This document shows positions 27,801 through 60,800 of a stretch of DNA of 64,000 nucleotides, piece after piece. This DNA is from Lytechinus pictus (lineage: Eukaryota). Location of the stretch: assembly GCF_037042905.1 (NCBI RefSeq), contig NC_087252.1, forward strand, positions 14,136,001 to 14,200,000. The letters are read 5' to 3'. The position numbers are program-made. Numbering within the stretch: position 1 is the first letter of the stretch; every line of letters begins with the position of its first letter.

Positions 27801-30800
27801 TTGCTTTCCAGGCAATAGCCTAGAGGTAAAGACCATAATTGAGCCAGTGCGATATAATGAAATAATAATCATAATAATATAAAGTCACTGAATCAAAGAA
27901 TATGTGATTACATGTCCCATTTCACATTGCTCCGTCATGCGAATGTGATGTGACCGCCTTTCAAGCGCAGAGATTTCAATAATCATTATAAAGAGATAAA
28001 ATAGTGGGTTCTACTTCATACCGGTTGCTTGCATATACACAGTGTACATTTGTAGATGTTGCTTCATGAATTGGAGCGTTGAATGACTTCACTTTTGATA
28101 TAGCCAATAACTTATGAAAACATGCATTATAATAATAATATTCCGCATTTATATAGCGCTTAATACATCGGAACGACGTCTCTAAACGCTTTACAGACAT
28201 ATCATTACCCCGGTCATCGGATCCTTGCATGCCCGCATACAATGTATGCACCTTCTCCACTCCCTGGGGAGCATTCCAACAAGAGTTCCGAGACTCAATT
28301 GCTAGGCATTATGACCGAGATTTTCTCATGGATGTTTGCACGTGATTGTCGATTGGGCTATAATGTATGTACAATGTAGACCCAGTGCCTGTACTTTTAA
28401 ACAGTTTCTCTTAATTAGCTCTTTTACTTTTTAATCACCAATAGCACAACACCAGGAACAGTCTAACCCCTTTTCTGCTACTCAATACAAAATTTATACT
28501 TTACACCTTCAACATATAAAACTTCAGCTTTTATCTTGTTTTATTTTCATCATGCACATTGAAAATTCTGTGATAAAATTATTAAAGAATTATCCACATC
28601 CCCAAAAGGTATAAATATTCTATGTACAGCAAAAGAACCCTCTGCCTTTAATATATTTCTATTTTAAATATTTCCAATATGTATCAACAGACGTCTTATT
28701 TCATGTTCATGCTTCGAATTTTATCTTCTGCAGTAACATTCATGAGCCAGCCAGGGGTGGATACGATTCTTGCCCTCCTGAGTTGCTGCCGCCATTCTTG
28801 CCAATATGATGAGCCCAGAGGGAGCGATGGTGGTGAGGGTATCAGCCAGTACAGTAGCTCAGCCCACTAGCACAGAAACCATCAGCACATCGCCAGACAG
28901 GTGAGTGTTCACACTAATCCACTTGTTAACGTTTATAGTTGTGGAAATCGTTCGACACCTTTACAACTGTGGGGGTGTCGTGGTTAAGACTCTCGTCTTC
29001 CAATCAGTGAGGGATGTTGGCTCGATTCCCAGCCATGGCGTGTTTTCTTCAGCAAGAAATTTACCCACATTGTGCTGCACTCAACCCAGGTGAGGTATTT
29101 GTAAAAAATCATGGTGACCTGCACCGAATGGGACAAAATTTGTGACTTTAGAAGCTGATGAAGTCAAGAAAAATACAAATATTACGTACTGTACCAAGAA
29201 TATATAACAGATACATCAGAGTAAACATTCATCGACATGTAACTTTTATGCATACATCAACTTGGGAAATTGAGTTCAACAAAATTGAAATGGAGTGAAG
29301 TTGTCTGCAGCACATGTGCAAACTATACATCAATGTGGTGAGCATAAACTGTATGGACCAGGCTAATTTCCCTTTTTATGAGGAATCCAATCCAGCATGC
29401 AAAAATGTTTATGATAAAAGGTACATCATTCAAAAGTTTAAACATAGATGGTGATTTCAGACCTGTTAAGAAGAGAATGTATATTGAGTTAATCCCTAAA
29501 TATTGGACCTCAATGTTCAAATTTGAGAAACCGCTTTGAACATAGAAAAAGAATGATTCCTTTATTTTGTCAGGGATCCAATATGTCATTTGAATCAGAC
29601 ATTATTTAGATTTTGTTGTTGTTTAATTGATAAAAAGTGATATAAAGATTTTTAAACTGTAAATTTTGCTTTAATTTTTCTGAAAATGTGTAAAATGAAA
29701 AAAAAAGAGTAATAAAATTGAGATTTTATCTTCCAAAATTGAATACAGGGTAAATAAATAAAGGTGAGAGGATGCAAAATTCACTTATTAGTATGTTATA
29801 TAAAATGGCAAGTTCCCTCAAGTCTGCGCAGTCCCCCTTGTCAGGTACATCTGCGCAATTCTAGTAAAAAGAAGATACACAATGAACACAAACTTTACAC
29901 ATGCAATAATAGGCAGATATCAGCCAGATATTCATAAAAAAATCTGAATCAAAATGGTGGAAAAATAATGAATTTTGGGCATTTCTTGTGACGGCCTCAA
30001 ATTATGCAGCCTTCCTCATCAAAATCCCTGAATCGCATGCAAAGTGAATGGGAGCACAGACATGGGGCACAATTTTTTTTTGTTTAATCTAAAAATGACT
30101 GCCCTAGCTTTTTTTCCAAGAAATTCATATATATCTTTCAAATTCTTATGAGATATTTGGCATGCCAACTCATAATGATGTAAGGAACATTATCAAATGA
30201 AAGCTAAATAAAAAGAAATAAATAGAAATATTAACTCAAATCATTAGGTGCACCGACTTGGGGGCCATCATCATACATGTACATGTATAATGGAGAGACT
30301 CATTGATATAATAAAAGTCTGTTTGACATTTTTAATGTATAGGCCTGAATGTGCCAAGTAAGCAGCTGCATTGTTACCCCTGAAACAGGCTTCATAGTGA
30401 ATCATTCTACATAAAGGCTTCAGTTATAAACTTTGTATCTCGATGCAAAGTACATGTACTTTTGGGGAAATGAAAGAATTTCCTTTGAAATTCAGACTTT
30501 GAATGTTTCAATTCATGTATTTCTTGATGTTAAAATTGTTTTATTATTATATCACAGAACAATAATATTAAAAGCAATACATATACAAAAATACAATTTA
30601 GAAACTGTAACAAAAGATTAAAAAGAAATACTGTATCGGCAGGAATTGCTTTACATTGTACAGTAGGCCTACTATTTTGGGGATTTCATGAAAGTACCGT
30701 TAACTCCTCCAAACACGTATGCAGTTTATAAAGAAGCTGTCTATTTATGATAACACTCCAAATAATAGTAATTTGTCCCAAATAATAGGGCAAATTTTAA

Positions 30801-57800: not shown

Positions 57801-60800
57801 CTCTATCTGGAATATTTCTTCTTGTCTAACATCCTGATCTGCATTTGTATTATTTGTTGCCCTCAGTTTGTCTCTATAGATTGCACATTTTAATATTTGA
57901 ACATCTTCAATATTAGTTTTTCTTCTTTCTATTATTCAGGGATACAAATGCTGATATTGACCCAACCAAGGATTGACAAAATTACAAAACAAAACTCCCA
58001 AAAGATGTGAAGTGTTTTTTAAAAACAAAATACTCTGCTTTCAATTCATTGCTGTTATTTTGTTATGTCTTGTGCAAACGTTTTCCTTCTTAGCCTGGCA
58101 TTATTAGCAAAAGTTAACCCTTAGAATTGCCTAAGAGGTGTCAGTAACATATTTTCAAACATATGCAAAGTTCTGTATTACCATGATTACTGAAGAACAA
58201 TGAGATTATGATGGACAGAGACAATTATTTCATATTTCTTAGTCTTCACTCTCTTTTTGCATAACACATTTTCTGGGAACCCCTTTTCTTGCATGCGAGC
58301 CAAGGAAAGTCATAGCTTTCATGTTGCTTTCTACTGGATACTGATCAATCAAGGTGAATATCACACTATTTATGGACTTCTTGGATTTCCAGCCAAGTGT
58401 TGAGAGGCTAAGAATGGACGACAGACTTTCAATGCCAAATGAATTCTTATTCAATCAAGATATTGCGTTGAGGAGTTTACAAGATTGGTTTCCCCTGGAA
58501 ATTAATACATGGAGTTACTTTTGACTTTATTCAAGGAGAGCTTCAAGAGAATGCTTTGGTCAAGGTATTTTATGATACCTCAATTTCATTGCTGATTCCA
58601 GTTCTTCAACCAGTATCATGATTTTGAGAACTTATTTATTGTCTAATTATTATTGAAACACAAGATCTGTTTATAGTCCATGATTACACCAAGCAAGGTT
58701 TGACTCCGCTAGACAGTCCAACACCAAAGAACATTGTTGCTGATGTTGTTCCAATATTGAACATTAATTGGGGAGTCAATGAATTGATTGTGTCTTGTGA
58801 ATTTGCAATTAAAGACAATGATGTTCACCTGAAAAAAATATGCACTTATAAGAACAGTCTGCTATAACATGATGAGCAGACATTGAAATGTTCAAATATT
58901 GACCTGGGCATCTTTAAGCGAATCATTGCCAGGGACAGGGTCTGTTAATGTCCTGGACCATTATCAAGACTAATTTGTTTTTGTTCTAAAGTAGATCCTA
59001 GACCAAACGTTCTGGATAGCATGAATAGTATCCTATTTCATCTTCACTGATGTGTACATTTACCAATCAATGATATCAGTTTGTGGATCATTAACTTCAA
59101 TAACTTGAGCTTGAATTGGGCTAAAGCGTGAATGTTACTGTGAAAAAAAATTCCATGGAAGAACTCTTTTCTGCTGCCCAAGATCAGAAGCATCCCACAT
59201 GGTACAGTATAGGACTCTACTTTAAGTCTTATGTTCAATTGGTGACCTAATGACTGTATCAGTGTTCCTTGTCTATTGATGCTGATCTTTGATAAACATG
59301 GCACCTACTACAAAATTTGTTCAGAAGCGTGCAATTGTTAAAAGGAGATACTACTATTCACAGAGATATATCGGGTAAGTTGTAGTTACTAACTTTTCCA
59401 ATTTCATTGATTGATTTTACAACAATAGAGCTTAATAGATAAAAATTAAGCTTAAAAAGGATAACCAATCAAGCTATAATTTTGCTATAGTGGCCAAGAA
59501 ACTGAAATAGCAAGAAGAATGGCTTGATGAATGCCTTATGCCTATTTGATTCATGACATGTTTTCCTTTGTAGCAAGAAATTAATCTGCATTTTGCTGCA
59601 CCCGACTCGGGTGATAATATTTTCTTGAATGGACTGAGCATGGGAATTATAAAGTAACACATCTTGAGCTTAAGTGGATGCTTTGTTTCCTCTTGGAAAA
59701 AAGCATACAAATACAAATCCAGCCTCTGATGAGATCATTGTTGTGAGCTAGATTGGAAAGGGGTTTGTTTTCTTGCTTGTATTTTGTTAGGTGATATATG
59801 AAGGGGAATTTTGTTGTTAATGCTGAAAATATACCACAGCTTTTCACCATGTCCAGGTTCTAGGCAGAGTCATTCAGCACAGCGTGATCTGCCACATCAT
59901 CGGTGTTGGCAAAGTACATGAACTTGACATTAACATTTTGATGATGTCTGATGTGGCTGTCTGTTTGGATACTAATGTTGGCATATGATAACCAAAATCA
60001 GGCCAATAAATTCACCTTTAATAGGAAATCTGGCAACTGGCAGAATGCATATGCTGCAATTCTGTCCAGGTAGATTTACTTTTTTTCTCCTTGTTTTGTT
60101 GCCTTGTCTTTTTTGCCTTGTAAATGTACAAGTATGTTTTTCATGGTATCAAATTTAGAGCGTAAGCTCTAGGTAATTTTTTTAAAGGGGATAACAATAG
60201 ACAATTTTTATGATTGGTGGCGTTGTGAGCAGAGCTAAAGAAAAAAACAAAAAAATAAGGGGCCAAAATGGCATATTGGCTAAAGTTAATATAAAAAAAA
60301 GAGTTGTGAGGGAGCTAAAACTTGCACCTTTTTTGTACTACAGGTATGTTTGATGATAGAATACAACATAATATTTAGAAAATGATGCAATTTCACTGTT
60401 TTTCTTATCTTATCCTTTTCTTTCTTCTATTTTTGGTCATGGAACCTTTTTGGGATCAAATGCCAGTAACTCCCTCCAAATCTATATGCAAGTGAATATG
60501 ATAATTTGGTGGATGTTGGCCTACAGTTTATGTAGTTGGGTATATGTGCTTTGCAGGAATTGGTACTGTTACCAAATACATGTGCATGTACTTTGGATTG
60601 ATAATTCCCCTTCTCCCTCTTCAGATTTTGAAATCATACAATTGTACACATACATGCGCACCGACATGTAGCAAAGGAATTTCCAAATGCCTGTTTACAT
60701 CATCACCGTGTCTACATTAAAGCTTCCTTCATAACATTGAATGAATCAATCAATAGCTTTATACAGACCCTGTCTTGCATGTACCATGGAGCCAAGACGA

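What the first reader, a model, noticed from the sequence alone, without database searches (positions are those of the whole stretch)
28734..59380. Hidden array of at least four alternative N-terminal exons, all phase 2
Seen: four short reading frames missed by the ORF track (28806-28900, 45422-45564, 53858-53931, 59298-59374). Each starts at an ATG with A at -3, is stop-free, and ends exactly 2 nt into a codon at a GTRAGT donor. Matching phase is what swappable first exons splicing to one downstream exon require. B, C and D follow long, repeat-poor, UTR-like stretches (about 44.5-45.4, 50.4-53.8, 57.3-59.3 kb). Inference: a multi-promoter gene with a cassette of N-termini, a design known from cyclic-nucleotide phosphodiesterases and MITF. 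The gene itself cannot be identified from this window.
Basis: partly seen in the sequence, partly recalled or inferred. Interest (0 to 1): 0.65.

Follow-up and report, generated by a model that had tools for sequence, protein, structure and literature searches.

The report
Four alternative N-terminal exons, RhoGAP gene
The four short reading frames are real alternative first coding exons of a sea-urchin ARHGAP32-like Rho GTPase-activating protein gene, all joining one tiny shared exon that lies inside the window; public gene models of a sister species already show this, so it is correct but ordinary.

Summary
All four frames exist exactly as described. By count alone they are not above chance. 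Resampled sequence gives 2.6 such frames per strand, at least 4 in 137 of 500 runs, and at least 4 in one phase in 17 of 500. Homology settles the matter.

Exon B alone finds S. purpuratus "rho GTPase-activating protein 32-like" (E 2.6e-18). The five Lytechinus variegatus LOC121420213 isoforms carry all four N-termini: A 31/31, B 46/47, C 23/24 and D 25/25 residues identical.

It is a 27-nt microexon at 63797-63823, behind a strong acceptor. It starts with T and encodes SVASLAAL. The last two bases of each exon plus T give Ser, Cys, Gly and Gly, which are the junction residues of those isoforms.

So the phase-2 cassette reading is supported and the gene is identified.

Separate promoters for each exon are inferred, not shown. 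Exon A has an acceptor-like site just upstream.

Starfish and brittle-star orthologues also have 3-4 N-termini with the same kind of junction residue. Exon-by-exon homology across classes was not significant.

Verdict: real, already annotated elsewhere, of modest interest.

The parts
28806..28900 (+). Alternative 5' coding exon A. It has 31 codons plus 2 nt and is acidic and Ser/Thr-rich. The donor is CAG|GTGAGT at 28901.
   Evidence: Searches show the frame. It is 31/31 identical to the N-terminus of L. variegatus isoform X3 (P0140). It matches Diadema antillarum P0148 at 21/31 and the unnamed urchin record P0017 at 22/31.
28734..28805 (+). Possible non-coding 5' part of exon A. It follows an acceptor-like site (pyrimidine-rich tract ending in CAG at 28733) and contains an out-of-frame ATG at 28742.
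   Evidence: Read directly. Whether this site is used as an acceptor is untested.
45422..45564 (+). Alternative 5' coding exon B. It has 47 codons plus 2 nt, is basic, and has Cys at positions 12 and 14. The donor is ATG|GTAAGT at 45565.
   Evidence: Searches show the frame. One search gives S. purpuratus XP_030833992.1 at E 2.6e-18. Identities are 46/47 to L. variegatus X1/X2, 40/47 to S. purpuratus and 32/47 to Diadema setosum.
53858..53931 (+). Alternative 5' coding exon C. It has 24 codons plus 2 nt and is basic. The donor is AGG|GTGAGT at 53932.
   Evidence: Searches show the frame. Identities are 23/24 to L. variegatus X5 (P0138) and 22/24 to S. purpuratus P0002. tblastn gives E 1.1e-08.
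59298..59374 (+). Alternative 5' coding exon D. It has 25 codons plus 2 nt, 7 K/R and no D/E. The donor is CGG|GTAAGT at 59375.
   Evidence: Searches show the frame and composition. It is 25/25 identical to L. variegatus isoform X4 (P0016). It was found in that one species' models only.
63765..63796 (+). Polypyrimidine tract and CAG acceptor of the shared exon.
   Evidence: read directly from the sequence.
63797..63823 (+). Shared 27-nt microexon. Its first base T completes the split codon, it then encodes SVASLAAL, and its last two bases AG open the next split codon. It enters and leaves in phase 2. The donor is GAG|GTAATT at 63824.
   Evidence: One search found it by tblastn with orthologue N-termini. 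Searches give the sequence and translation. Adding T to the exon ends gives AGT Ser, TGT Cys, GGT Gly and GGT Gly, which are the junction residues in L. variegatus X3, X1/X2, X5 and X4.

Best explanation
The window holds the 5' end of a sea-urchin ARHGAP32-like gene (the PX-RICS type of RhoGAP; Lytechinus or a very close relative). Four alternative 5' coding exons lie over 30.6 kb: A, B, C and D. Each has its own ATG in a good context, and each ends 2 nt into a codon at a consensus donor. Each is joined, one per transcript, to the same 27-nt microexon at 63797-63823, across introns of 34,896, 18,232, 9,865 and 4,422 nt. The microexon's first base T completes the split codon as Ser, Cys, Gly or Gly. 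The microexon also ends in phase 2 and passes to the rest of the gene, which lies beyond 64 kb.

The result is one SH3-RhoGAP protein with four interchangeable heads of 25-48 residues. A is acidic and Ser/Thr-rich. B is basic with a conserved Cys-x-Cys. C is basic. D is polybasic.

Shown: the exons, their phase, the shared acceptor, and their match to annotated isoforms. Inferred: each exon (at least B, C and D) is a true first exon with its own promoter, and upstream-initiated transcripts skip the later ones because those lack acceptors. Also inferred: the heads act as different localisation or regulation labels. For example, B may be lipid-anchored through its cysteines and D may bind membrane electrostatically.
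For: Gene identity: (exon B, E 2.6e-18, 85% identity, 100% cover to the S. purpuratus 'rho GTPase-activating protein 32-like' protein). Of the 15 listed members of that 17-member cluster, 9 start with the B type, 2 with the C type, and 4 are fragments.

All four heads appear on the 5 L. variegatus isoforms, with near-perfect identity. Each isoform carries only one head.

The A type also occurs in Diadema antillarum and in an unnamed urchin record, P0017. That record is 1381 aa on a 4,856-nt contig, which is too short to contain the introns. It therefore looks like a spliced transcript.

The protein family of the L. variegatus orthologue P0139 rests on RhoGAP at 3.8e-45 plus SH3. The best solved relative is the RICS GAP domain 3iug at 5.9e-84, against 8.2e-33 for the next RhoGAP.

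Each exon sits in a block free of within-window repeats. The four exons show no similarity to each other.
Against: No transcript, CAGE or junction-read data could be consulted, so promoters and actual use in this species are unproven.

The public isoforms are automated predictions. D rests on one species' model only.

Exon A is preceded by an acceptor-like site ending at 28733. Weaker acceptor-like sites lie 243 nt before B and 116 nt before D. Some of these exons may therefore not be first exons.

CpG o/e shows no peak at the exons. Values at D are 0.20-0.25 against a window mean of 0.51. TATA-like sites occur only before A, and at the background rate. ATGs are not depleted upstream.

No evidence bears on what the four heads do.
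Confidence: 0.85

Rival explanations
1. The exons are mutually exclusive internal exons. One upstream promoter with a non-coding leader exon (for instance in the CpG-rich block at about 11-14.5 kb) drives all transcripts, and A-D are chosen by alternative splicing instead of by promoter choice. The proteins would be the same, but the control would lie in splicing.
For: There is an acceptor-like site directly before exon A, ending at 28733. Candidate acceptors lie at 45179 and 59182. The strongest CpG o/e peak in the window (1.10-1.17 against a mean of 0.51) is at 12-14 kb and not at the exons.
Against: No acceptor candidate was found within 400 nt upstream of C, and those before B and D are weak. 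Nothing here tests either model directly.
Confidence: 0.2
2. A and/or D are chance frames that an automated pipeline also picked up, and only B and C are real N-termini.
For: Chance alone gives about 2.6 such frames per strand, and the - strand has 2. S. purpuratus models show only B and C. D was seen in one species' models only.
Against: A is conserved in Diadema (21/31) and is present in a transcript-like unnamed contig, P0017. A and D are identical to L. variegatus isoform heads (31/31 and 25/25), and their end bases plus the microexon's T give the annotated junction residues. I infer that a head found in no other species' model could not have been predicted from homology alone, which implies transcript support. 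I did not see that support.
Confidence: 0.07
3. All four frames are coincidence and there is no gene here.
For: The count of candidates is within the chance range: at least 4 in 137 of 500 resamplings.
Against: E-values of 2.6e-18, 6.6e-21 and 1.1e-08. All four match isoforms of one gene, and the shared exon is present downstream in the right phase.
Confidence: 0.01

Closest known systems
Lytechinus variegatus LOC121420213, isoforms X1-X5 (XP_041470704.1 to XP_041470708.1; automated RefSeq models)
   Same: They carry the same four N-termini on the same shared SVASLAAL segment. Identities are A 31/31, B 46/47, C 23/24 and D 25/25, and the junction residues Ser, Cys, Gly and Gly are as predicted from the window.
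   Different: There is one residue difference in B and one in C, so the window is not the exact sequence those models were built on. Of the 8 L. pictus models in the same cluster, none has any of these heads; all start further downstream.
Strongylocentrotus purpuratus 'rho GTPase-activating protein 32' and '32-like' isoforms
   Same: The B and C heads sit on the same shared segment (40/47 and 22/24 identical).
   Different: No A or D head appears among the 15 listed of 17 cluster members.
Mammalian ARHGAP32: PX-RICS (isoform 1) versus RICS (isoform 2)
   Same: It is the same gene family. The GAP domain's best solved match is RICS. [quoted passage not shown]
   Different: By my recollection, not tested here, the mammalian isoforms differ by the presence or absence of the whole PX-SH3 region. 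They do not differ by short interchangeable heads in front of it. Vertebrate proteins align to only 78% of the queried region, residues 48-330 of P0001, so part of that region has no vertebrate match. I did not view the alignment coordinates and cannot say which part.
Multi-promoter genes with short alternative N-terminal exons
   Same: The design is the same: several ATG-bearing first exons in one phase joined to one common exon.
   Different: The protein family is unrelated. P0139 has only RhoGAP and SH3 Pfam domains.
Variable-first-exon clusters (protocadherin and UGT1A; recalled)
   Same: There is an array of 5' exons, each spliced to the first constant exon.
   Different: Those variable exons are long paralogous copies. 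Here the exons are 74-143 nt of coding sequence and show no similarity to each other.

Membership tests
Alternative-first-exon (N-terminal cassette) gene | Several 5' exons, each with its own start codon | tested here: met
   There are four ATG-initiated frames, each with an in-frame stop 15-111 nt upstream.
Alternative-first-exon (N-terminal cassette) gene | All exons join one common acceptor in one matching phase | tested here: met
   All four end in phase 2. The shared exon at 63797 accepts in phase 2, and the predicted junction residues equal those of the L. variegatus isoforms. Splicing itself was not observed.
Alternative-first-exon (N-terminal cassette) gene | One head per transcript (mutually exclusive use) | tested here: met
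   Each of the 5 L. variegatus isoforms carries exactly one head. This is evidence at the level of annotated models only.
Alternative-first-exon (N-terminal cassette) gene | A separate promoter or transcription start for each exon | not testable with these tools
   No CAGE or RNA-seq data were available. The CpG, TATA and ATG-depletion proxies were uninformative.
ARHGAP32/33-type RhoGAP (PX-SH3-RhoGAP) | RhoGAP domain closest to RICS | tested here: met
   Tested on the orthologue P0139, not on window sequence. Pfam RhoGAP scores 3.8e-45. PDB 3iug RICS scores 5.9e-84 against 8.2e-33 for the next hit.
ARHGAP32/33-type RhoGAP (PX-SH3-RhoGAP) | SH3 domain N-terminal of the GAP domain | tested here: met
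   SH3 lies at residues 292-345 of P0139.
ARHGAP32/33-type RhoGAP (PX-SH3-RhoGAP) | PX domain before the SH3 | tested here: inconclusive
   No PX family was found at E <= 0.01 in P0139. Among the listed hits only one, an annelid protein, has PF00787 precomputed. Vertebrate ARHGAP32 proteins do align to 78% of the queried region (residues 48-330) at 51-57% identity.
   P0139 shows only RhoGAP and SH3 families.
Paralogous variable-exon cluster (protocadherin/UGT1A type) | Variable exons are recognisable duplicates of one another | tested here: not met
   Self-BLAST of the window gives no match covering any of the four exons.

The most novel reading that the evidence does not exclude
The cassette may be an ancient, conserved device and not an urchin quirk. 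Starfish (Asterias with 3 heads, Acanthaster with 4) and a brittle star (Amphiura with 3-4) also put several heads on the orthologous protein. All 13 of their distinct heads end in Ser, Gly, Cys or Arg. That is the NGY codon set expected if a phase-2 exon ending in G meets a shared exon starting with a pyrimidine. The shared segment before the conserved R-G-K motif is 8 residues in urchins and starfish. If so, a phase-2-in, phase-2-out adapter microexon with a set of chemically distinct address heads (acidic Ser/Thr-rich, Cys-pair basic, basic, polybasic) has been kept since the common ancestor of these classes. It would send one RhoGAP to different membranes or regulators.
Probability: 0.25. 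Interest if true: 0.45.

Novelty: already known. Interest (0 to 1): 0.25.

Why it matters
It shows that reading raw sequence for start context, donor and phase can recover a real multi-head gene design. It also fixes the gene and the shared exon for this window. In practical terms, the 8 L. pictus models in the same protein cluster lack these exons, so the coordinates could repair truncated models in close relatives. Biologically, it gives a compact case for asking how four short N-terminal heads change the targeting of one Rho-family GAP during urchin development. I found no paper on this.

Tried and rejected
- Pfam on the four peptides gave only one sub-threshold chance hit. PDB with peptide B gave nothing below E 1.4.
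A (31 aa) and C (24 aa) are also under that minimum and were not sent. These three were compared only locally, exon by exon, with the fetched isoforms.
- I did not build or search a joined (spliced) model of the window exons.
- My eye suggested cross-class homology between urchin B and the starfish 'MFRK...' head, and between urchin C and the starfish 'RRRWTWSS' head. A permutation test did not support this: the best result was p = 0.013 among 52 comparisons.
- Promoter proxies gave no usable signal: CpG o/e, TATA and ATG depletion.
- A relaxed scan gives 58 candidates on the + strand and 40 on the - strand, so it cannot nominate further exons. A fifth phase-2 frame at 60210-60343 matched nothing.
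- Ten long ORFs elsewhere in the window have no Pfam family.
- No tRNA gene and no Rfam family were found.
- The first tblastn with whole proteins missed the microexon. It appeared only with short N-terminal queries and without composition-based statistics.
- The genome-contig collection holds bacteria and archaea only and was not used. No echinoderm DNA or transcript data could therefore be compared.
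Full report
**Observation**

The four frames are in the sequence exactly as written. They are A 28806-28900, B 45422-45564, C 53858-53931 and D 59298-59374. Each starts at an ATG with A at -3; B, C and D also have G at +4. Each is stop-free and has a length of 2 modulo 3. Each ends at a donor matching GTRAGT with G at -1. Each ATG has an in-frame stop 15-111 nt upstream.

**Chance**

It gives two from 14 sites on the - strand, also both in phase 2.

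In 500 first-order Markov resamplings of the window, the mean is 2.6 candidates per strand (sd 1.7). At least four occur in 137 of 500, and at least four in one phase occur in 17 of 500. The count is therefore unremarkable and the phase agreement only mildly unusual. The pattern alone would not have proved anything.

With looser criteria the window gives 58 candidates on the + strand and 40 on the - strand, in all phases.

**Gene identity**

Pfam and PDB searches of the peptides gave nothing. Peptide B alone, searched against the large protein set among longer proteins, found one cluster. This was S. purpuratus 'rho GTPase-activating protein 32-like isoform X2' (XP_030833992.1, 1425 aa), at E 2.6e-18, 85% identity and full coverage.

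Fifteen of that cluster's 17 members were listed. Nine begin with the B-type head, two with a C-type head, and four are fragments. tblastn of three of these proteins against the window hit only exons B (6.6e-21) and C (1.1e-08).

**All four heads**

I searched with residues 48-330 of the S. purpuratus reference protein. This returned the orthologues of other echinoderms: 1311 hits at E <= 1e-10 among 4433 candidates, of which 120 were listed.

The members of ten clusters were listed: 76 of 78. Their N-termini were printed: 93 proteins, including the S. purpuratus set.

The five Lytechinus variegatus LOC121420213 isoforms carry all four window heads:
- X3 carries A, 31/31 identical.
- X1 and X2 carry B, 46/47.
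- X5 carries C, 23/24.
- X4 carries D, 25/25.

Each isoform has one head, followed by the same segment beginning SVASLAAL.

Diadema models have the B type in 2 of 3 and the A type in 1 of 3.

An unnamed urchin record, P0017, has the A type from the second Met. It encodes 1381 aa on a contig of 4,856 nt. A contig that short cannot hold the introns, so I read it as a spliced transcript.

None of the eight L. pictus models in the same cluster has any of these heads. All start further downstream.

D was seen only in L. variegatus.

A and C are also below that limit. These three were therefore compared only locally, exon by exon. I did not build or search a joined spliced model.

**The shared exon is in the window**

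A local tblastn used 51 distinct N-terminal stretches of the orthologues. Besides A-D, it gave a short exact match at 63771-63824.

The sequence there shows a long pyrimidine tract and CAG ending at 63796. A 27-nt exon follows at 63797-63823, then a GAG|GTAATT donor. Bases 63798-63821 translate to SVASLAAL.

The exon's first base is T. It therefore completes the split codons as AGT Ser (A), TGT Cys (B), GGT Gly (C) and GGT Gly (D). These are the junction residues of the L. variegatus isoforms.

The exon also ends 2 nt into a codon, so it is symmetric: phase 2 in and phase 2 out. The next exon is beyond 64 kb.

The implied introns are 34,896, 18,232, 9,865 and 4,422 nt.

**What the gene is**

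The L. variegatus orthologue P0139 has a RhoGAP domain (3.8e-45) and an SH3 domain before it. No PX family was found at E <= 0.01.

Its best solved relative is the GAP domain of RICS (3iug, 5.9e-84). The next RhoGAP scores 8.2e-33.

The gene is therefore ARHGAP32-like. The PDE and MITF comparison is one of design only.

**How it most likely works**

Shown: there are four ATG-bearing 5' exons and one shared acceptor in matching phase, with one head per annotated isoform.

Inferred: each exon, at least B, C and D, has its own promoter. Transcripts that start upstream would skip the later exons because those lack acceptors.

The evidence for this is indirect. Every exon lies in a block with no within-window repeats (0% covered, against 19.1% for the window). 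No acceptor candidate was found within 400 nt of C, and those before B and D are weak.

There is also evidence against it. Exon A is directly preceded by an acceptor-like site ending at 28733. The only strong CpG o/e peak (1.10-1.17, against a mean of 0.51) is at 12-14 kb and not at the exons; D sits at 0.20-0.25. TATA-like sites occur only before A. ATGs are not depleted in the supposed UTR stretches.

A single-leader model with mutually exclusive exons remains possible. I give it about 0.2.

**The heads**

The four heads are unrelated to one another and chemically distinct:
- A is acidic, with 11 Ser/Thr in 31 residues.
- B has net charge +4 and Cys at positions 12 and 14. Its first 15 or so residues, including both cysteines, are unchanged in S. 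purpuratus, L. variegatus and Diadema.
- C has net charge +3.
- D has net charge +7 and no acidic residue.

I infer that they act as localisation or regulation labels. B may be acylated and D may bind membrane. Nothing here tests this.

**Wider pattern**

Asterias has 3 heads, Acanthaster 4 and Amphiura 3-4. The sea cucumber and crinoid models show one head each.

All 13 distinct non-urchin heads end in Ser, Gly, Cys or Arg. This is what a phase-2 exon ending in G gives when it meets a shared exon starting with a pyrimidine.

Head-to-head similarity across classes was not significant. The best result was p = 0.013 among 52 comparisons. A conserved design is therefore plausible, but exon orthology is not shown.

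**Known or new**

The four heads and the shared segment are already in public automated gene models of L. variegatus. B and C are also in S. purpuratus.

Four literature searches found nothing on this cassette. 'ARHGAP32' with 'sea urchin' gave 0 papers. 'ARHGAP32' with 'alternative promoter' gave 4 papers, all unrelated by title. The PX-RICS isoform search and the same-phase first-exon search gave nothing relevant in their listings. Supplementary files were not consulted.

I rate the finding as already known at annotation level.

**Not checked**

No echinoderm genome or transcript DNA could be searched, so splicing and promoters in this species are unverified. The species of the window was not determined beyond 'Lytechinus or very close'. 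The N run at 17983-18114 was left alone. Elsewhere in the window I found no tRNA, no Rfam family and no Pfam-bearing ORF.

Noticed in passing
window 11000-14500: This is the strongest CpG-rich block of the window. CpG o/e is 0.87-1.17 against a window mean of 0.51. The block is largely free of within-window repeats at 12-14 kb. It could be an unmethylated promoter, perhaps for a non-coding leader that splices into exon A at 28734, or for a neighbouring gene. ORFs there have no Pfam family.
   Followed up: partly
window 28742-28870: An out-of-frame upstream ATG (T at -3) lies 64 nt before exon A's start codon. By eye, it opens a reading frame that overlaps the start codon. It may dampen translation of the A isoform.
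   Followed up: no
window 60210-60343: This is a fifth ATG-to-donor frame in phase 2 (CAG|GTATGT, T at -3, basic peptide) lying between D and the shared exon. It matched no orthologue N-terminus and is probably chance.
   Followed up: partly
They serve as a reminder of the chance background.
   Followed up: partly
   Followed up: no
window 35448-36029, 46183-46753, 5357-5587, 56513-56729: Satellite-like tandem arrays with periods of 102/200, 163, 77 and 58/75 nt. Trinucleotide arrays lie at 9826-9896, 11881-11969 and 38654-38774.
   Followed up: no
window about 15, 20-21, 32, 35, 55-56 and 62-63 kb: Interspersed repeat families occur at up to 7-9 copies within the window. Several long ORFs in the ORF list share translated motifs from one such element. 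None was classified.
   Followed up: no
proteins P0135-P0137, P0141, P0142, P0144-P0146 (Lytechinus pictus models): All eight L. pictus models of this gene start downstream of the heads and the shared exon. Their 5' ends look truncated compared with L. variegatus.
   Followed up: no
orthologue proteins, just after the shared segment: A basic motif of the form R-G-K/Q-x-x-R-K-x-S-E-x-D follows the shared segment in urchins, starfish, brittle star, crinoid and acorn worm. Only a looser version of it is seen in the sea cucumber. The Arg-Lys-x-Ser core resembles a basophilic kinase site (recalled, untested).
   Followed up: no
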